Of a stretch of DNA of 44,466 bases, positions 11,455 through 24,787 are shown piece after piece. The notes under the pieces are model-generated. The model searched no databases and was not told the DNA's origin. It was given only the letters and a program-made list of their open reading frames with translations. Position 1 is the stretch's first letter, and each line of letters starts with the position of its first letter. Made by a program: the position numbers and the translations under genes. Source of the stretch: a virus; the IMG/VR virus record IMGVR_UViG_3300045988_053012, positions 1 to 44,466 of that record; one strand, 5' to 3'.

Positions 11455-11530
11455 TTTGGAAATTAAAAATAAATAACTACCTTTGTGCCGTGGTTGATAT
11501 GACAACCCGACGGACGCGGCCGGTTCCGCG
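11455..11530 (+). promoter_or_regulatory. Early promoter A plus structured leader
   Basis: TTTG 11455-11458, then 19 nt, then TAccTTTG 11478-11485. Leader hairpin 1 is GGTTG 11492-96 / CAACC 11503-07. Leader hairpin 2 is CGCGG-CCGGTT-CCGCG 11515-11530. ATG at 11549. Confidence 0.65.
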
Positions 11531-11548
11531 ATTGAAACAACAACAGTT

Positions 11549-11782
11549 ATGGCAATGTTGAAATACACAACCCGTCAAATCAACGGCAATTACAAAATCA
11601 AGGTTTCCGGCCTGTACGATGGCAAGAAAATAAACACGTTGGTTGGAGTTTCGGGTCTTATTAAAATAGTTGACGACATCGAATTAACCAACCGTCTTTT
11701 GGACCGGGCCTTTGCCTGTATGGATGGCAAATGCGTTTGCAAATTGCGCCGTGGAATACGTGTCAGTTTTTACGTTCATTGA
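11549..11782 (+). CDS. Hypothetical protein
   Basis: 77 aa; first cistron after promoter A. Confidence 0.55.
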   Translation: MAMLKYTTRQINGNYKIKVSGLYDGKKINTLVGVSGLIKIVDDIELTNRLLDRAFACMDGKCVCKLRRGIRVSFYVH

Positions 11783-11900
11783 AAAATTACTATCGTTTGC
11801 AACGAACGGTTGTTTGCCCCAACCGATACGAAATTTAATACCCTGTAAAGTAAATCCACGGGGGCAAAACGTGGGTTGAAATACGGGGCGTTTTTGTATT

Positions 11901-12158
11901 ATGAAAATATGCGTTATGAATAAGGCACGATTTCAATTATTGGCGGACGCAACAATGATGATGGCCGCCGCGATGGACAACCAGTTGTTCGACACGGGGC
12001 CGTCCAAAGTTTACGTCAAGCCCATATCCAAAACGGATTTGCCAAGTTGGGACATAAACGGGGCGGTCATTTACGCAAAGGATGAAAAGACGGCCACGAA
12101 ATACGCCAAGAAACGCGGTTTGTGGCGTCCGGGAACGATTGTTAAACCCATCAAATAA
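11901..12158 (+). CDS. Hypothetical protein
   Basis: 85 aa; + strand operon position. Confidence 0.5.
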   Translation: MKICVMNKARFQLLADATMMMAAAMDNQLFDTGPSKVYVKPISKTDLPSWDINGAVIYAKDEKTATKYAKKRGLWRPGTIVKPIK

Positions 12159-12270
12159 ACTGATATGCAAAAATTCAAATTCGGGAATCCCTTAACGTTT
12201 GTTGATGTTTCCAAAAACCCGTTGGACCGTCCGGAACCGGGCAACCGGTACACAAAAAAAAGAAAGCAAG

Positions 12271-13855: not shown

Positions 13856-14085
13856 TGGATGCAAAAACCCCGCCCGGACGAATCCCGGCGGGGCGGTCAA
13901 AATACCGATGTGGGCGATACGATGAGGTAAAAAGACGCAACAAAGATAGGGAAAATTCGGCGATTGGCGAAATTCCCTATTTCTTTTTGTTTTGCGTTGG
14001 CTTTTCACGATACCCGGTTTGGGCCGAAATCTTGCACTCGGATTCAAGAAAAATGCACTTTTTTTCGTAAAAATTAAAAAAATTT

Positions 14086-14160
14086 TTTGGTTTTAAGAGG
14101 AAAGCACTATATTTGTACCCGGGTTCGATAATGAAACCCACGGCCCGGGCCGGTTCCCGG
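14086..14160 (+). promoter_or_regulatory. Early promoter B plus structured leader
   Basis: TTTG 14086-89 and TAtaTTTG 14108-15. Hairpin 1 is GGGTT 14121-25 / AACCC 14135-39. Hairpin 2 is CCGGG-CCGGTT-CCCGG 14145-14160. ATG at 14176. Confidence 0.65.
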
Positions 14161-14175
14161 TAAAGAACAAAAGTT

Positions 14176-14442: not shown

Positions 14443-14450
14443 GTAACCCC

Positions 14451-14470
14451 GGCCCGGGGAAACCCGGGCC
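14451..14470 (+). promoter_or_regulatory. Intercistronic GNRA-tetraloop hairpin (family copy 1)
   Basis: GGCCCGGG / GAAA / CCCGGGCC, followed by ACAAA. No U tract. 18 nt to ATG 14489. Confidence 0.6.
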
Positions 14471-14488
14471 ACAAATTCCAAATACGAA

Positions 14489-14728: not shown

Positions 14729-14736
14729 TTGAACCC

Positions 14737-14756
14737 GGGGCCGGGCAACCGGCCCC
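14737..14756 (+). promoter_or_regulatory. Intercistronic GNRA-tetraloop hairpin (family copy 2)
   Basis: GGGGCCGG / GCAA / CCGGCCCC, followed by ACAA. 16 nt to ATG 14773. Confidence 0.6.
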
Positions 14757-14772
14757 ACAATCCCAATCGAAT

Positions 14773-15141: not shown

Positions 15142-15148
15142 CGATTGG

Positions 15149-15171
15149 CCCGGGAATTATCCCGGGTTTTT
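15149..15171 (+). terminator. Intrinsic terminator
   Basis: CCCGGG / aattat / CCCGGG, followed by T5. Confidence 0.7.
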
Positions 15172-15466
15172 CGTATCTTTGTCACGTTTAGTTTTTCAGT
15201 TTAACATGGTAACAGGAACGGCCAACGTTGCGAAACGTCGGCCGTTTGTGCTTTCGGCCCGTATAGGCCAATATCGGGCGATTTGGCGGCCTTTCTCGTG
15301 AAATTGGACCAACGCACCATCTTTGCGCAAAACGTGCCTTAAATCGAAAATTCGGAAAAATTAAGGTTTTGTCGGTGGCGCCTGTTTTCTTTGGTAGCCC
15401 GATTCGGACTTTTGGTTTTCGTTTTTCGGGTTCCTGGTCAAAAACTTAAAAAATTATGAAAATATT

Positions 15467-15542
15467 TTTGGTAATTAGAAAATAATACTTATCTTTGTAT
15501 CCGGGTTAAGGAAATAACCCAACGGATGAGGCCGGTTCCTCA
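15467..15542 (+). promoter_or_regulatory. Early promoter C plus structured leader
   Basis: TTTG 15467-70, then 19 nt, then TAtcTTTG 15490-97. Hairpin 1 is GGGTT 15503-07 / AACCC 15516-20. Hairpin 2 is TGAGG-CCGGTT-CCTCA 15527-15542. ATG at 15564. Confidence 0.65.
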
Positions 15543-15563
15543 AACAAAATAAACGCAATAGAA

Positions 15564-15743: not shown

Positions 15744-15753
15744 AAAATAAACC

Positions 15754-15771
15754 GGGGCGGGCAACCGCCCC
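15754..15771 (+). promoter_or_regulatory. Intercistronic GNRA-tetraloop hairpin (family copy 3)
   Basis: GGGGCGG / GCAA / CCGCCCC, followed by ACCAAA. 17 nt to ATG 15789. Confidence 0.6.
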
Positions 15772-15788
15772 ACCAAACCGAAAGCGAT

Positions 15789-16014: not shown

Positions 16015-16458
16015 ATGCGATTCAAGATTGACAAAAATTTGAATGTGGTTGCGGCCGGAATGGCCGCACCCGTTGAACCCGAAACCGTGGCGGTAGAACT
16101 TTGCGCCCGTTTCGTTGATGCCGGAATGATTGACGACACGCCCGACAATTGGGGCGAATCAGTATTGGCGGCAACCGGCCCGCAATACGTTTCCAATGTG
16201 TGCGCCGTCTTGGCTGAATACCTGTATGGCGACGAATCCCATTCCATCCCGTCGGACGTGTTCGATGCTTTTTGCGCCCTTACTATTATGGGCGACGGGG
16301 ATTGCCCGCATTGTGGCGGCGAATTAAAGTTTATCGAAACAGAGGGCCACGAACTGAAAGATGGCGATTATTACACGCCCAATTCTTACGTCATTGATAA
16401 TTACGTTTATCGTTGCGTTGAATGTGGCGAAACAATTAAAACACCAAATGAATTATGA
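16015..16458 (+). CDS. Hypothetical protein with C-terminal zinc ribbon
   Basis: 147 aa; CPHCGG ... YRCVECGE. Confidence 0.55.
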   Translation: MRFKIDKNLNVVAAGMAAPVEPETVAVELCARFVDAGMIDDTPDNWGESVLAATGPQYVSNVCAVLAEYLYGDESHSIPSDVFDAFCALTIMGDGDCPHCGGELKFIETEGHELKDGDYYTPNSYVIDNYVYRCVECGETIKTPNEL

Positions 16459-16685
16459 TGCGAATTGAAGAAGCGATTGCCCGCGCAAAGCAACAGGGCA
16501 ACAAAGTATTGAAAAAGAACATTGCCGCGCGTTTGTGGCCCGATTCCACGCCGGTTGCGCAACAAGTAAACATTACGCGTTTATGCGCCGGGAAAACCCA
16601 GCGAATCAACGTTGAATGGGTTAACGTCATTTGCGAAATGACCGGATGCACGGCGGATTTCCTTTTTGGACTTTCAAACGAATAA
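16455..16685 (+). CDS. XRE-type helix-turn-helix DNA-binding protein
   Basis: 76 aa; HTH segment NIAARLWPDSTPVAQQVNITRLCAGKTQRINVEWVNVICEMTGCTADFLFG. ATGA overlap with the upstream gene. Confidence 0.6.
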   Translation: MMRIEEAIARAKQQGNKVLKKNIAARLWPDSTPVAQQVNITRLCAGKTQRINVEWVNVICEMTGCTADFLFGLSNE

Positions 16686-16869: not shown

Positions 16870-18159
16870 ATGAAAGAAGAAAAGACAATTGACCCGGCGT
16901 TGGCCGCATTGGCTGAACCGGAACAGGAACAGGCAAAGGAAATCGCGCCCGGAATGACTGTTGAAGAAATCCGCGCCGTTTATTTCAATGCTGATGCGTT
17001 GAAAGAACCCGCGTACCGGTTGTTCCAACTCAATTCCGACGGACACCGGTATTATTACCGCTTCAACGATGCCGGGGAACCGGAATTTTACCCGTCCGTC
17101 ACGACGTTGTTAAAACAGGTTATGCCGACCGCGCCCGCCCTGTTGGATTGGATGATTGCCAACGGCAAGGATGGTTCCACGGAAAAGCGGGATTTGGCCG
17201 CCGCGTATGGAACGTTTATGCACGGCGAATTTGAAAAACTGATTATCAACCGCCGTTACGACTTTGATTCCGTCCCGGCCGCCCTGTTGGCGTATATGGA
17301 ACGGGAAAACTTGCCCGAGAAGATGTTTGCCGAATGGTTGCCGAAAGTACGAAAGGACGTGTTAGCGTTCGCCCAATTCCTCAAGGATTGGAACGTAAAG
17401 CCGTTGGCCGTGGAAATCGGTTTGTATCATCCGAAATTCCATTATGCCGGTTGCCTTGACTTGCCGTGCATTATGACCGACCCGAAAACCGGAAAATCGT
17501 TCGTGGCAATCGTGGATTTCAAAAGCGGCCGGAAAGGGTTTTACGAAGAACACGAATTGCAATTGCATTTGTACCGTGAAATGTGGAATGTCCATTATCC
17601 GGAAATGCCGGTTGCTCGTGTGTTTAACTTTTCGCCGAAAGATTGGCGCAAGGCCCCGACATACAATTTGAAAGACCAAACGGATTCCGTGAATGCCAAG
17701 AAATTGCCGTACCTGTTGGCGTTGGCAACGATTGAGGATGAAAAGCGGGATAACACGTTGACGATTGTACGCGGCGTTTTGGACCTTGACAACGGCAAGA
17801 TTGCCGACAACATCTTGACGTTATCGTTGGCCGACCTTATCAAGACGAAAGCGGCCGAAAAGGACGCACCCGAACAGGCGGCGAAAGCCCCGGAAAAGAC
17901 GGATTCGCCGGAACCCGCCCAAAAAGGCCGTAAACGAGCCGTAAAAGCAACGAAAGAACCCGAACCGGTAAATACCCCGTCCGAACCGGAAAAACCCGTT
18001 AAAACGAAGATTCCGAAAAAATTACCGGATGATGGCGCAACGGACAAATTGCCGTGGGAAAACGAACCGGAACCGGCCAAGTCCACCGGACCCACGCCGG
18101 AACAGATAACGGAACAGGCGGCAAAGGATAATTTGTTAAACGATGAAATCGAATTGTAA
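16870..18159 (+). CDS. PD-(D/E)XK family nuclease (RecB/Cas4/lambda-Exo-like) with a disordered C-terminal tail
   Basis: 429 aa. Core motifs GCLDLPC ... AIVDFKSGRKG ... ELQLHLY. The last ~100 aa are P/E/K-rich. Confidence 0.65.
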   Translation: MKEEKTIDPALAALAEPEQEQAKEIAPGMTVEEIRAVYFNADALKEPAYRLFQLNSDGHRYYYRFNDAGEPEFYPSVTTLLKQVMPTAPALLDWMIANGKDGSTEKRDLAAAYGTFMHGEFEKLIINRRYDFDSVPAALLAYMERENLPEKMFAEWLPKVRKDVLAFAQFLKDWNVKPLAVEIGLYHPKFHYAGCLDLPCIMTDPKTGKSFVAIVDFKSGRKGFYEEHELQLHLYREMWNVHYPEMPVARVFNFSPKDWRKAPTYNLKDQTDSVNAKKLPYLLALATIEDEKRDNTLTIVRGVLDLDNGKIADNILTLSLADLIKTKAAEKDAPEQAAKAPEKTDSPEPAQKGRKRAVKATKEPEPVNTPSEPEKPVKTKIPKKLPDDGATDKLPWENEPEPAKSTGPTPEQITEQAAKDNLLNDEIEL

Positions 18160-18779: not shown

Positions 18780-19505
18780 ATGGGCGGACGTATTTACAGG
18801 CCCGAACAGGGCGTGGCAATCCTTGAATTGCCCGAAATCGGCCGGTTGCACATCGGCAAAAAACAGATGGGTCAAAACGGCAAGGAATACCCGGTTTCCG
18901 TGGATTATTTCATACCGGCTGGAAAGTATGCCGGGATGTTCACGCAAGCGTTGGGCGAAAAGCCACAAACAATCCAAATCATTTTCCCGGATGATTCCCC
19001 GGAAAAGGTATGCAACGAACGTTATGAATACCGCGACAATGCGGGCGCATTGGTTGCCAAGGGTGACGGCCGGACGTTCGAAATATGGGACGGAAAAAAA
19101 TACGTTCCATATTCGACTGATGCGTACCCGGATATTATGGAACAAATCGCAAAGAACAACCCGACCAAACGCGGGACCGAAAATTGGGATATTGTCTTAA
19201 CGTTGCGATTCATTGTTCCGGCCGTCCGTGGAATTGTTGGCGTATGGCAATTTTCCACAAAGGGCAAGGCGTCAAGCGTCCGGAATATCCGGGAATCGTT
19301 CGACGGTGTGCAAATGATGCGCGGAACGGTTACGCAAACCGTGTTCGATTTGTCGGTACAGTTTGCCAAAAGCAACAAACCCGGCGTGTCGTCCCGTTAT
19401 CCTGTTGTTTCGTTGGTTGCCAATGATACGCGGATTGAGGAAATACGCCAAGCAATTGCACCGACGCAAAATTTATCGTTACTATTGCCGGATAAAGAAA
19501 AATAA
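18780..19505 (+). CDS. Hypothetical protein (recombination/replication-associated by context only)
   Basis: 241 aa; downstream of the PD-(D/E)XK nuclease; I recognise no named motif. Confidence 0.5.
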   Translation: MGGRIYRPEQGVAILELPEIGRLHIGKKQMGQNGKEYPVSVDYFIPAGKYAGMFTQALGEKPQTIQIIFPDDSPEKVCNERYEYRDNAGALVAKGDGRTFEIWDGKKYVPYSTDAYPDIMEQIAKNNPTKRGTENWDIVLTLRFIVPAVRGIVGVWQFSTKGKASSVRNIRESFDGVQMMRGTVTQTVFDLSVQFAKSNKPGVSSRYPVVSLVANDTRIEEIRQAIAPTQNLSLLLPDKEK

Positions 19506-19506
19506 C

Positions 19507-19544
19507 TATCTTTGTGGCAGATAATTGACAATGGCGGTTGTCAA
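19507..19544 (+). promoter_or_regulatory. Promoter-like -7 box plus operator-like palindrome
   Basis: aaaaataacTAtcTTTG with the box at 19507-19514; the -33 is only ATTG. A perfect inverted repeat TTGACAA-n6-TTGTCAA (19525-19544) follows. Confidence 0.4.
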
Positions 19545-19558
19545 GATGGGAAATTAAA

Positions 19559-19616
19559 GCCCGGCAAAGTAGATGACGCGCCGCCACGCGTCGTTGAAAT
19601 GTCGGGCATTTTTTTT
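19559..19616 (+). terminator. Strong intrinsic terminator abutting the replication-module start codon
   Basis: Outer stem GCCCGGCA 19559-66 / TGTCGGGC 19600-07. Inner stem GACGCG 19575-80 / CGCGTC 19587-92. T8 at 19609-16; ATG at 19622. Confidence 0.75.
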
Positions 19617-19621
19617 GGAAA

Positions 19622-20416
19622 ATGACGTACAATTTGAATATAGACCAAGAATTTGCGATTGTCAACGACCTTTCGTTGGTACATGTTTCCACGCTGGCCG
19701 CGTTTATGACGTTGCCGATATGGACCAAGACAATTGCAATTGACGGGTTCGTGTGGTATCAGTATTCCGACGAAAAGATGGCCGACGATTTCCCGTTATT
19801 GTTTGGCGTGGCGAAAAGGTGTTACAAGAACATTGCCGAATTGGCCGCGTTGGGATTCGTTGAATTAACCAAGTTGGGACGCACGAAATATGTTAGGTTC
19901 ACGAAACGTTGTGCCGATTGGGGAAAGCAAAAAGAACAAATCCGGTCCAACGGTCCGAAAACGGACCGAGAACAGACCGAAAACGGACCGGCAATTAGTC
20001 CGAAAACGGACCCGGTAAATAATAACTATAACATTACCAATCCGAGCATTGAAGATAAAGCCGCCGACGGCGGTTTGTTCCCGACCGAACCTGCGTTTGA
20101 AACGGTTACAGTTACCCGGCCGCGCCGGACCGCCGAACCGGCCGTGTGTCTGTTCGAAAATTCCCGTTTCGCCGAATACAATGCGTTTGCCGCCGAATTT
20201 ACAGCCCCGGAATTTGCCGACGTGGATATTGTCTATTATTACCACGCCGTTGCGGATTGGTCCGCACAAAAGGGCAAGAAAATGAAAGATTGGATTGCAA
20301 CCGCGCGGAATTTCATTCGTGGCGATAAGGAAAAGAACAAGTTGCACCGGAAAAGCGGAACCGGACCGGGATTGTCACCGGATGCAATTAAATATTTGCA
20401 AGATATGGCAGATTAA
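19622..20416 (+). CDS. Replication initiator / replisome-organizer candidate
   Basis: 264 aa. Carries dyad iterons plus an AT-rich tract mid-gene (lambda O-like layout). The C-terminal YYYHAVADWSAQKGKKMKDWIATARNFIRGDKEK resembles DnaD/phage organizer tails (from memory). Confidence 0.45.
   Translation: MTYNLNIDQEFAIVNDLSLVHVSTLAAFMTLPIWTKTIAIDGFVWYQYSDEKMADDFPLLFGVAKRCYKNIAELAALGFVELTKLGRTKYVRFTKRCADWGKQKEQIRSNGPKTDREQTENGPAISPKTDPVNNNYNITNPSIEDKAADGGLFPTEPAFETVTVTRPRRTAEPAVCLFENSRFAEYNAFAAEFTAPEFADVDIVYYYHAVADWSAQKGKKMKDWIATARNFIRGDKEKNKLHRKSGTGPGLSPDAIKYLQDMAD
19953..20040. repeat. Putative origin of replication: three 14-bp dyad iterons plus an AT-rich tract
   Basis: G(T/A)CCGAAAACGGAC at 19953-66, 19975-88 and 19998-20011, spaced 22-23 bp. 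Followed by about 25 nt of ~84% A+T (20016-20040). Confidence 0.55.
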
Positions 20417-23369: not shown

Positions 23370-23378
23370 CTGAAAATG

Positions 23379-23454
23379 TTTGGAAATATAAAAATTATCC
23401 TTATCTTTGTACCCGGGTTGAGGAAACAACACCACCGCCCCGGCGGGTTCCGGG
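23379..23454 (+). promoter_or_regulatory. Early promoter D plus structured leader
   Basis: TTTG 23379-82, then 19 nt, then TAtcTTTG 23402-09. Hairpin 1 is GGGTTG 23415-20 / CAAC(A)CC 23427-33. Hairpin 2 is CCCGG-CGGGTT-CCGGG 23439-23454. ATG at 23475. Confidence 0.65.
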
Positions 23455-23522
23455 ATACAAAACGACAAAGAATTATGGAACAGGTAACGAAATTCGGAAT
23501 GATTTATTGGTAAAACGTTGCA

Positions 23523-23782: not shown

Positions 23783-23853
23783 TGCTTCGTGGTGTAACGG
23801 TAACACCCCGGATTTTGGTTCCGGTAATCCACGTTCGAATCGTGGCGGGGCAA
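23783..23853 (+). tRNA. tRNA-Gln (anticodon UUG)
   Basis: 71-nt cloverleaf. Acceptor TGCTTCG/CGGGGCA (two G-U pairs). D arm GTGT-AACGGTA-ACAC. Anticodon arm CCGGA-TTTTGGT-TCCGG. T arm CCACG-TTCGAAT-CGTGG. CCA is not encoded. Confidence 0.8.
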
Positions 23854-23959: not shown

Positions 23960-24040
23960 ACCCACGTGGCGTAATGGTAGCCGCGATTGATTCAAAACCA
24001 ATTGCCGTATGGCGTGCCGGTTCGATTCCGGCCGTGGGTA
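23960..24040 (+). tRNA. tRNA-Leu (anticodon CAA), class II
   Basis: 81 nt. Acceptor ACCCACG/CGTGGGT. D arm GCG-(taatggtagc)-CGC. Anticodon arm ATTGA-TTCAAAA-CCAAT (A-C at 31:39). 13-nt variable arm GCC-gtat-GGC. T arm GCCGG-TTCGATT-CCGGC. Confidence 0.7.
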
Positions 24041-24740: not shown

Positions 24741-24751
24741 TCCATTAACCC

Positions 24752-24771
24752 GGGGCCGGGCAACTGGCCCC
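24752..24771 (+). promoter_or_regulatory. Intercistronic GNRA-tetraloop hairpin (family copy 4)
   Basis: GGGGCCGG / GCAA / CTGGCCCC (one G-U pair), followed by ACAAAAAA. 16 nt to ATG 24788. Confidence 0.6.
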
Positions 24772-24787
24772 ACAAAAAAGCGATACG

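What the first reader, a model, noticed from the sequence alone, without database searches (positions are those of the whole stretch)
19507..19621. Replication module can only be reached through a strong terminator: candidate early-to-middle switch
Between the stop of 18780..19505 and ATG 19622 lie three elements.
1. A -7 box identical to early promoters C and D (TAtcTTTG, 19507-14), but with a weak -33 (ATTG).
2. A perfect palindrome TTGACAA-n6-TTGTCAA (19525-44), located where the transcript or an operator would start.
3. A long two-tier hairpin (19559-19607) followed by T8 (19609-16), ending 5 nt before the start codon.

There is no room for a promoter downstream of the terminator. The initiator gene and the ~3.7 kb behind it must therefore be expressed by terminator read-through. 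This is the sort of target that the leader hairpin family (previous finding) would serve if it is an antitermination signal. The palindrome could bind the XRE-type protein 16455..16685 or another regulator.
Basis: partly seen in the sequence, partly recalled or inferred. Interest (0 to 1): 0.65.

Follow-up and report, generated by a model that had tools for sequence, protein, structure and literature searches.

The report
Kissing-loop leader RNA gating replication genes

Summary
They form one unit, not three.

I found the same layout in 52 distinct type-A copies and about 9 copies of two variant types, all from uncultured gut or rumen Bacteroidales phages. The layout is a Bacteroidetes -7 box, then 7-10 nt, a 5' hairpin, an A-rich linker, a long two-tier hairpin, a U-tract and the ATG of the next gene.

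Its 6-nt spacer (UGGCGG) is the exact complement of the apical loop of the terminator hairpin (CCGCCA). This loop-loop complementarity of 6-11 nt holds in 52/52 copies, with 23 different sequences, while the stems covary. Hairpin 2 also carries an invariant AAGUA/GAAA internal loop.

The window holds a second copy at 11803-11898 with non-cross-pairing loops. Rfam, the literature searches and the deposited phage genomes gave no match.

My best reading is a promoter-proximal attenuator leader, also released as a short RNA, that gates transcription into the replication module. The role of the kissing pair is unknown. The operator/XRE idea is not supported. Termination, read-through and timing are untested.

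The parts
19484..19487 (+). -33-like element ATTG (consensus TTTG), 19 nt upstream of the -7 box, inside the 3' end of the Gp3-like gene
   Evidence: In homologs the same position is TTTG in 31/52 and NTTG in 13/52, with an 18-21 nt spacer. Motif definition from PMC7366714.
19507..19514 (+). -7 box TATCTTTG (Bacteroidetes sigma-ABfr type)
   Evidence: An exact TAnnTTTG lies 7-10 nt before hairpin 1 in 50/52 type-A copies, behind several different upstream genes.
19519..19523 (+). Inferred transcription start, about 7 nt after the -7 box and 2-6 nt before hairpin 1
   Evidence: Inference from the motif position. Covariance model R1 aligns from 19521. Not mapped experimentally.
19525..19544 (+).
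   Evidence: All 4 modelled stem pairs show double changes. L1 is complementary to L2.
19545..19558 (+). A-rich linker GAUGGGAAAUUAAA (A-tract side of the terminator)
   Evidence: consensus GGAAAUUUAAU. Predicted to pair partly with the U-tract.
19559..19607 (+). Hairpin 2: lower stem 19559-66 with 19600-07; invariant internal loop AAGUA (19567-71) opposite GAAA (19596-99); variable upper stem 19572-80 with 19587-95; apical loop L2 CCGCCA at 19581-86
   Evidence: -29.2 kcal/mol, z -4.05. Helix 2 is 99.2% paired and helix 3 is 94% paired, with 7/7 pairs covarying. Internal-loop entropy is 0.17-0.21 bits.
19609..19616 (+). U8 tract, 1 nt after the stem
   Evidence: At least 5 T in the 9 nt after the stem in 52/52 copies, and at least 7 T in 42/52.
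19622..20416 (+). Replication initiator gene, with its ATG 5 nt after the U-tract
   Evidence: PHROG replication initiation protein (weak). The homologous PDS1 gene is annotated 'replication initiator A family protein'.
11803..11898 (+). Second copy of the same RNA element. Loops are UUUGCCC(C)/(G)GGGCAAA and do not cross-pair with copy 2. It has an imperfect -7 box TATCGTTTG at 11791-99, then T5GTATT, then ATG at 11901
   Evidence: Model R1 scores 77.3 bits, E 2.4e-16. Sequence. Loop duplex -12.7 kcal/mol, cross pairs -1 to -2 kcal/mol.

Best explanation
Positions 19484-19621 are one transcription unit: a sigma-ABfr-type promoter followed at once by a structured leader RNA of about 96 nt. The leader begins with a short 5' hairpin and ends in a long A-tract/hairpin/U-tract intrinsic terminator placed 5 nt before the initiator start codon.

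Polymerases starting here, and those arriving from the upstream early operon, must pass this terminator to transcribe the initiator gene and the roughly 3.7 kb behind it. The element therefore acts as an attenuator that sets or gates replication-gene expression. Terminated transcripts accumulate as a discrete small RNA.

The apical loops of the two hairpins pair with each other (6 bp here, 6-11 elsewhere). This pairing is the selected, phage-specific feature of the family. I infer that it controls how the terminator performs: how efficient it is, how stable the RNA is, or whether transcripts recognise each other.

Shown: the sequence anatomy; conservation of the promoter box, U-tract and ATG spacing; covariation of all helices and of the loop-loop pair; folding of the + strand.

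Inferred: promoter activity, termination, read-through, and any regulatory role of the kissing pair.
For: - Anatomy and fold.
- Same architecture in 34 elements found by regex and in 69 model hits, 52 of them distinct.
- Nested helices: 92.7% of cells paired against 37-47% for slid controls; covariation score 0.731 against at most 0.125; 16/18 pairs with double changes.
- Loop-loop pairing: 52/52 copies have 6-11 contiguous Watson-Crick nt at a constant apical position, with 23 distinct sequences. Non-cognate pairings average 4.5 nt.
- Clean compensatory steps between close relatives: TGGCCG/CGGCCA against TGGCAG/CTGCCA, and CCACGAC/GTCGTGG against CCACTAC/GTAGTGG.
- Two variant architectures with unrelated sequences keep the same rule (types B and C).
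- Promoter box in 50/52 copies at a fixed distance; the ATG within about 7 nt of the model end in 49/50 copies despite unrelated downstream genes.
- U-tract present in all copies.
- 102 G.U cells against 18 A.C cells, so the + strand is the one that folds.
- No minus-strand -7 box between 14.5 and 24.3 kb, so no antisense partner.
- No further + strand consensus promoter before 23031.
- A TSS plus an intrinsic terminator is the canonical layout of Bacteroides small RNAs, and TAnnTTTG/TTTG is the promoter motif (PMC7366714).
Against: - There is no transcript data. TSS, 3' ends and termination efficiency are all unmeasured.
- The -33 element here is ATTG, not TTTG.
- The -7 motif on its own is not enriched in the window.
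- Cultured relatives do without the element, so it is dispensable for the module.
- The closest relative (L003) carries a G.A mismatch in the lower stem.
- I found no alternative antiterminator pairing, so how termination would be relieved is unknown.
- A U-run directly before an ATG could also serve translation initiation in a phylum without Shine-Dalgarno sequences.
- About half of the homologous copies precede homing-endonuclease genes rather than replication genes, so the link to replication is not general.
Confidence: 0.6

Rival explanations
1. Self-recognising small RNA. The terminated ~96-nt transcript is itself the product. Its two mutually complementary loops pair between molecules, not within one. 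The second outcome would be a sense-RNA feedback on replication-gene transcription with phage-specific loops.
For: - The kissing module (hairpin 1, upper stem, loops) is the fastest-evolving part on a conserved scaffold. Of 76 pairs with at least 93% identical scaffold, only 22 share the same loops. That pattern is typical of specificity determinants.
- Two copies in one genome have loops that do not cross-pair: the window and the contigs behind L076, L069 and L044/L067.
- Complementarity often extends 1-3 nt into the stems, up to 11 nt, as in antisense kissing complexes.
- Geometry (my inference): head-to-head stacking of hairpin 1 on a roughly 22-layer hairpin 2 would need the 11-16 nt linker almost fully stretched (for lengths).
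Against: - The ATG of the next gene is tightly fixed after the U-tract, which fits a cis leader better than a free-standing RNA gene.
- Differing loops between two copies would be expected by chance, given about 20 loop classes.
- No structural or biochemical data exist.
- Bends at the kissing junction or the internal loop could allow the cis form.
Confidence: 0.25
2. One reading: an ordinary terminator, plus a DNA operator (the palindrome) bound by the XRE-type protein 16455..16685 or another regulator.
For: A perfect 7-n6-7 palindrome lies just downstream of a -7 box, and an HTH-like ORF lies nearby (weak Pfam HTH_26 match, E 0.0058, below cutoff).
Against: - The arms change by compensatory substitutions and differ completely between phages with 95-98% identical neighbouring proteins.
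- The spacer covaries with a loop 49 nt away.
- G.U pairs occur in the stem.
- The palindrome occurs only once in the window.
Confidence: 0.04
3. A riboswitch-like sensor. The conserved linker and the AAGUA/GAAA internal loop, held together by the kissing loops, bind a small molecule or a conserved protein, and binding tunes the terminator.
For: About 20 unpaired nucleotides are nearly invariant (entropy 0.17-0.21 bits for the internal loop). Kissing loops organise several known aptamers (my knowledge). A terminator is a common expression platform.
Against: - Types B and C lack the conserved internal loop and linker but keep the kissing pair and the terminator.
- No mutually exclusive antiterminator helix is evident.
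- The linker can be explained as the A-tract of the terminator.
- No Rfam match even at E <= 10.
Confidence: 0.08
4. A DNA-level element: a cruciform or single-strand hairpin that is part of the replication origin next to the initiator gene.
For: It lies directly upstream of the initiator gene. Iteron-like 11-nt repeats lie 330 bp downstream, inside that gene.
Against: - Strand asymmetry: 102 G.U against 18 A.C cells.
- The promoter box and U-tract are conserved in one orientation.
- A second copy lies 7.7 kb away from any initiator.
- Many copies precede homing endonuclease or methylase genes.
- L004 has an 86% identical initiator but a completely different RNA type.
Confidence: 0.03

Closest known systems
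Lambdoid PR'-tR' leader (lambda 6S RNA / StxS) and the tR1 terminator before the O-P replication genes
   Same: A promoter followed at once by an intrinsic terminator. The downstream module is reached only by read-through. The short terminated RNA accumulates and can acquire functions of its own (PMC7547250). tR1 likewise sits before the replication genes (my knowledge).
   Different: No Q/N-type antiterminator or qut/nut site has been identified here. The host is a Bacteroidetes with sigma-ABfr promoters. The lambda leaders have no covarying loop-loop pair.
Antisense-RNA-driven attenuation of rep genes (pT181, pIP501/pAMbeta1) and the IncI-alpha/IncB repZ pseudoknot
   Same: A terminator or long-range loop pairing in the leader just upstream of a replication initiator gene. 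Kissing loops act as variable specificity (incompatibility) determinants (my knowledge).
   Different: Those systems use a countertranscript from the opposite strand. Here no minus-strand promoter motif exists, and both complementary loops lie in the same sense RNA.
Satellite phage P4 CI RNA immunity (seqA/seqB/seqC)
   Same: A leader transcript contains segments complementary to each other. A leader-derived small RNA causes premature termination upstream of the replication genes. The complementary segments define immunity specificity (my knowledge).
   Different: P4 is temperate, its CI RNA is made by processing, and termination is not at a canonical hairpin-U terminator. I saw no integrase among the ORFs I scanned in this window, and no processing data exist.
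phi29 prohead RNA (pRNA)
   Same: A phage RNA of about 100-170 nt with two loops that are complementary to each other and covary between related phages. In pRNA they pair between molecules, hand in hand (my knowledge).
   Different: pRNA is part of the packaging motor of phi29-like podoviruses. It shares no sequence or structure model with this element (no Rfam hit), is not a terminator leader, and is not next to replication genes. This phage has a small-terminase homolog.
HK022 put RNA
   Same: A two-hairpin, promoter-proximal phage RNA that acts on transcription termination without a phage protein (my knowledge).
   Different: put suppresses downstream terminators and does not itself end in one. 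It has no loop-loop complementarity.

Membership tests
Intrinsic (Rho-independent) terminator | G+C-rich hairpin directly followed by a U-tract | tested here: met
   The 8-bp G+C-rich lower stem ends at 19607 and U8 starts at 19609. Whole hairpin -29.2 kcal/mol. The U-tract is conserved in 52/52 copies.
Intrinsic (Rho-independent) terminator | RNA 3' ends in the U-tract in vivo or in vitro | not testable with these tools
   Needs Term-seq or in vitro transcription.
Bacteroidetes sigma-ABfr promoter | -7 box TAnnTTTG | tested here: met
   TATCTTTG at 19507-14. Present in 50/52 homologs at a fixed distance from hairpin 1. Motif definition from PMC7366714.
Bacteroidetes sigma-ABfr promoter | -33 TTTG about 19 nt upstream | tested here: inconclusive
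   ATTG here (3 of 4 bases, 19-nt spacer). TTTG in 31/52 homologs and NTTG in 13/52.
Bacteroidetes sigma-ABfr promoter | Mapped transcription start | not testable with these tools
   No transcriptome is available, and no cultured phage carries the element.
Any Rfam 15 family (including pRNA, riboswitches, known Bacteroidales motifs) | Covariance-model match | tested here: not met
   No hit at gathering score. At E <= 10 over 19400-19720 only two chance-level hits, snoR16 and Toga_5_CRE.
Countertranscript (antisense RNA) attenuation system | Promoter on the opposite strand producing an RNA complementary to the leader | tested here: not met
   No minus-strand TAnnTTTG between 14.5 and 24.3 kb. 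The sigma-70-like match at 19665-19637 on the minus strand uses a consensus not used by this phylum's primary sigma factor.
phi29-type pRNA | Two mutually complementary loops that covary among relatives | tested here: met
phi29-type pRNA | Homology to pRNA, and a role or location with the packaging motor | tested here: not met
   No Rfam hit. The element lies in the early and replication regions, in two copies.
Riboswitch | Conserved ligand-binding core plus a mutually exclusive expression platform | tested here: inconclusive
   A conserved internal loop and linker exist. No alternative antiterminator helix was found, and variant types lack the conserved core.
DNA operator for a dimeric HTH regulator | Conserved palindromic half-sites | tested here: not met
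   The half-sites vary by compensatory change. The spacer, not the arms, is the constrained part.

The most novel reading that the evidence does not exclude
The element is a self-recognising RNA gate. Terminated leader transcripts carry two phage-specific, mutually complementary loops. Through these they pair hand in hand with each other, or with the 5' hairpin of nascent leaders. The amount of leader RNA already made would then feed back on termination in front of the replication or homing-endonuclease genes. This would be copy-number or immunity control using a sense RNA, with no antisense gene. Alternatively, the RNA assembles into a defined oligomer.
Probability: 0.25. Interest if true: 0.9.

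Novelty: new variant of a known kind. Interest (0 to 1): 0.72.

Why it matters
- It adds a well-supported structured RNA family to a phage group with almost no known regulation. There are more than 60 natural variants and unusually clean covariation, including a tertiary or intermolecular loop-loop pair. The phages are gut and rumen Bacteroidales siphoviruses.
- The family sits at the entry to replication genes and in front of many homing-endonuclease genes, so it probably sets how much of these dose-sensitive proteins is made.
- A conserved scaffold carrying a rapidly changing complementary loop pair is the signature of a specificity device. If the pairing acts between molecules, it would be a new way to build copy-number or exclusion control from a sense RNA. 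It would also supply a natural set of orthogonal kissing pairs and terminators for Bacteroides synthetic biology.
- The hypothesis is directly testable with loop-swap and compensatory mutants.

Tried and rejected
- Rfam at gathering score and at E <= 10: nothing.
- Literature searches for a kissing-loop, terminator or leader RNA in Bacteroides phages: nothing relevant.
- blastn of the element against 50,697 deposited phage genomes: only chance hits.
- Models R1 and R2 against the six cultured relatives (10-12 kb each): no copy.
- Other palindromes of the same kind in the window: none. TTGTCAA is over-represented as a word (25 found, 11 expected) but is scattered.
- Other sense-strand targets of either loop in the window: only 8-9-mers, none standing out; I ran no chance estimate.
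- The first early protein (11549..11782) as a partner specific to the element: rejected, because all element-less cultured relatives also encode it.
- One palindrome hit (L033) and one pattern hit (L071) were chance matches in unrelated sequence.
- Hits in MAGs labelled Alphaproteobacteria, Eubacteriales and so on lie on contigs of 3-47 kb. Several are about 42-47 kb, the size of a phage genome. I take these as mis-binned phage, not as host evidence.
- The MAFFT and model alignments do not keep the loops in register. I therefore counted the loop-loop pair with my own script rather than with the count of structure pairs.

Full report
**1. Observation**

- The upstream ORF 18780..19505 ends with TAA at 19503-05. 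It is Pfam Gp3-like/RDF-like, E 8e-32.
- TATCTTTG is at 19507-14.
- ATTG is at 19484-87, 19 nt upstream of the box.
- TTGACAA-TGGCGG-TTGTCAA is at 19525-44.
- A two-tier hairpin spans 19559-19607.
- T8 is at 19609-16, and the ATG of ORF 19622..20416 is 5 nt later.

The hairpin alone folds at -29.2 kcal/mol (z -4.05; 0/200 shuffles as good). The whole intergenic RNA folds as two separate hairpins.

TAnnTTTG is not enriched in the window as a bare word (46 found, 40.7 expected). The simple terminator scan did not list the + strand hairpin because of its size. So significance has to come from comparison with related sequences.

**2. What phage this is**

The window is a siphovirus-like genome of about 44.5 kb, with essentially all genes on the + strand. 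It is distantly related (about 69% nt identity) to Parabacteroides phage PDS1, Bacteroides phages C1_85S2P and BKO1-3, Alistipes phage AS73P1 and Elizabethkingia phage TCUEAP2.

Gene order around the finding:
- PD-(D/E)XK exonuclease, 16870..18159
- two small ORFs
- Gp3-like protein
- the element
- replication initiator
- phrog_34953 protein
- RuvC-like resolvase

In PDS1 and C1_85S2P the Gp3-like gene overlaps or abuts the initiator gene, so the element is absent there.

**3. The element is a conserved unit**

I fetched loci through the initiator protein and the Gp3-like protein. In nearly all uncultured relatives the DNA after the Gp3-like gene has the same order of parts:
- a -7 box;
- 7-10 nt;
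- a short hairpin;
- the linker GGAAATTTAAT;
- a long hairpin with a G+C-rich lower stem, an AAGTA/GAAA internal loop and a variable upper stem;
- a T-run;
- an ATG.

A regex over all loci found 34 distinct elements. A pattern built from the conserved scaffold found more in IMG/VR, in metagenomes and in MAG contigs. A covariance model (R1) confirmed 69 hits with E < 1e-6, of which 52 are distinct.

On the model alignment the nested helices are strongly supported:
- 92.7% of cells form standard pairs, against 37-47% when partners are slid by 1-3 columns.
- The covariation score is 0.731, against at most 0.125 for the slid controls.
- 16 of 18 pairs have changes on both sides.

G.U cells outnumber A.C cells 102 to 18, so the + strand, the RNA sense, is the strand that folds.

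**4. The key new point: the two apical loops are complementary**

In the window, the palindrome spacer UGGCGG (19532-37) is the exact reverse complement of the hairpin-2 loop CCGCCA (19581-86).

The same holds in every copy, but with different sequences. Examples:
- CGGCCA/TGGCCG
- TGGCCG/CGGCCA
- TGGCAG/CTGCCA
- TTGGCCC/GGGCCAA
- TTTGCCC/GGGCAAA
- CTTGCAC/GTGCAAG
- TTGCCG/CGGCAA
- TGTAGCGG/CCGCTACA
- GTGGCGG/CCGCCAC
- TGTGGCTG/CAGCCACA
- CTCGCAC/GTGCGAG
- ATCGCAC/GTGCGAT
- TTACGGCC/GGCCGTAA

In numbers:
- 52/52 distinct type-A copies have 6-11 contiguous Watson-Crick complementary nt (mean 8.06).
- The complementary stretch sits at a constant apical position in both hairpins.
- There are 23 distinct sequences.
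- Non-cognate combinations average 4.54 nt.

Near-identical elements differ by clean double substitutions in the two loops. L039 against L057 shows C to A in loop 1 with G to T in loop 2. L042 against L044 shows G to T with C to A.

Two other architectures with unrelated sequence obey the same rule:
- Type B has three hairpins and 7 distinct copies.
- Type C is seen in L030 and L031.

The predicted loop duplex is -9.9 kcal/mol for this copy.

**5. Other conserved features**

- Promoter: 50/52 copies have an exact TAnnTTTG 7-10 nt before hairpin 1, behind several unrelated upstream genes. 31 copies have TTTG and 13 have NTTG at -33, with an 18-21 nt spacer. These are the sigma-ABfr motifs (PMC7366714). 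A start about 7 nt after the box would put hairpin 1 at the very 5' end of the RNA.
- Terminator: all 52 copies have at least 5 T in the 9 nt after the stem. The A-rich linker can pair with part of the U-tract, as in A-tract/U-tract terminators.
- Start codon: the next ORF starts within about 7 nt of the model end in 49/50 copies. Those ORFs are unrelated to one another. About 24 are HNH or NUMOD4-type homing endonucleases by their N-terminal sequences (my reading, no family scan), and about 10 are replication initiators of several types. The rest include a PAPS-reductase-like protein, a DNA methylase and others. L036 has the same RNA as the window, but an HNH gene sits between it and the initiator.
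- Variability: the internal loop AAAGUA/GAAAU is nearly invariant (0.17-0.21 bits), and the lower stem and U-tract are conserved. Hairpin 1, the upper stem and the loops are the most variable parts. Of 76 pairs with at least 93% identical scaffold, only 22 share the same loops. The internal loop has the sequence signature AGUA/GAA of the bulged-G (sarcin-ricin/loop E) module. That assignment rests on my own knowledge and was not tested here.

**6. A second copy in the window**

Model R1 finds a second copy at 11803-11898 (77.3 bits). It lies between the first early gene (11549..11782) and an 85-aa ORF whose ATG is at 11901. Its loops are UUUGCCC(C)/(G)GGGCAAA. They pair at -12.7 kcal/mol with each other and at only -1 to -2 kcal/mol with the loops of the copy under study. 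Its -7 box carries a 1-nt insertion (TATCGTTTG, 11791-99).

Three other phage contigs also carry two copies with different loops.

**7. Interpretation**

The promoter box, the terminator features and the fixed ATG spacing all fit a promoter-proximal attenuator leader. Transcription into the initiator gene and the genes up to about 23.37 kb has to pass the U8 terminator, and no other consensus -7 box lies on the + strand before 23031.

The palindrome is not an operator. It is the 5' hairpin of the RNA, and the selected feature is its loop.

What the loop-loop pair does cannot be settled here. It could:
- lock the 5' hairpin onto the terminator loop in cis, affecting termination efficiency or RNA stability;
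- act between molecules, so that terminated RNAs pair with each other or with nascent leaders.

Three observations lean towards a specificity function:
- the kissing module turns over quickly on a conserved scaffold;
- two copies in one genome do not cross-pair;
- complementarity extends into the stems.

By my own estimate, a cis head-to-head stack would nearly stretch the 11-16 nt linker. Against the trans reading, the fixed ATG spacing argues for a cis leader.

No antisense promoter exists. That sets this element apart from plasmid countertranscript attenuators.

I give the DNA-level origin model, the operator model and the riboswitch model low weight, for the reasons listed under rival explanations.

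**8. Known or new**

- No Rfam family matches.
- No paper in the library describes it.
- No deposited phage genome contains it.

In logic it resembles several known systems:
- the lambda PR'-tR' leader and tR1 (PMC7547250);
- rep-leader attenuators and pseudoknots of plasmids;
- P4 CI RNA;
- phi29 pRNA, for the complementary loops.

It fails the defining tests for membership in each of these. I rate it a new variant of a known kind (a promoter-proximal terminator leader) with a feature not described before. The less conservative self-recognition reading remains open at about 0.25.

**9. Limits**

- Every functional statement is inferred from sequence.
- All homologs come from metagenomes.
- Host assignments of the MAG contigs are unreliable.
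- The loop-loop statistics come from my own scripts, because the automatic alignments do not keep the loops in register.

Noticed in passing
window 11803-11898: A second copy of the same kissing-loop/terminator RNA, with loops that do not cross-pair (UUUGCCC/GGGCAAA). It lies right after the first early gene and 2 nt before the ATG at 11901. Its -7 box has a 1-nt insertion (TATCGTTTG, 11791-99).
   Followed up: yes
window 19949-20013: Iteron-like tandem repeats AACGGACCGAA (period 11, about 4-6 copies) inside the initiator ORF. This is probably the replication origin, placed as in lambda O.
   Followed up: partly
window 11455-11545, 14084-14175, 15463-15563, 23375-23475: Four strong promoters (TTTG-N19-TAnnTTTG), each followed by a conserved two-hairpin leader: GGGUU..AACCC, then a covarying stem with the loop C(C/G)GGUU. 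None has a U-tract. Its role is unknown.
   Followed up: partly
window 12228-12256, 14446-14474, 14732-14760, 15748-15776, 24747-24775: A family of intergenic G+C-rich hairpins. The 14732 and 24747 copies read GGGGCCGG-GCAA-CCGGCCCC, with a GNRA-type loop. They lie between early genes and have no U-tract. They may be RNA processing or stability signals.
   Followed up: no
window 15142-15563: A stretch of about 420 nt with no good ORF. It starts with a canonical terminator (15147-15168 plus T5), immediately followed by a -7 box (TATCTTTG, 15174). It may encode a non-coding RNA.
   Followed up: no
L036:3222-3595; L039, L045, L049, L059, L060, L061, L067, L076 and many metagenome loci: About half of all copies are followed directly by an HNH or NUMOD4-type homing endonuclease gene. 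In L036 such a gene sits between the same RNA and the initiator gene. The conserved 3' scaffold may be a homing site, or the element may keep endonuclease expression low.
   Followed up: partly
window 11549-11782: The first early gene (77 aa, phrog_32997) is followed at once by a terminator-type gate, an arrangement like lambda N-tL1. Its BKO1-3 homolog is annotated as RluB-like. It is also present in relatives that lack the element, and it has no Pfam hit.
   Followed up: partly
L003:2901-2996: The closest relative (initiator 94% identical) has a C-to-A change that puts a G.A mismatch in the lower terminator stem. Predicted energy is -32.7 against -37.8 kcal/mol for the window.
   Followed up: no
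window 23783-23853 and 23960-24040: Two tRNA genes downstream of the fourth early promoter.
   Followed up: no
L083, L084, L087, L090, L091, L092, L096, L100, L101: Element-bearing contigs of 3-47 kb, several of about 42-47 kb, are filed in MAGs named Alphaproteobacteria, Eubacteriales, Enterousia, Faecousia and Acutalibacteraceae. They are most likely phage contigs binned by mistake.
   Followed up: no
window, whole: The heptamer TTGTCAA/TTGACAA occurs 25 times against 11 expected (0/100 shuffles reach 25). The occurrences are scattered with no obvious pattern.
   Followed up: no
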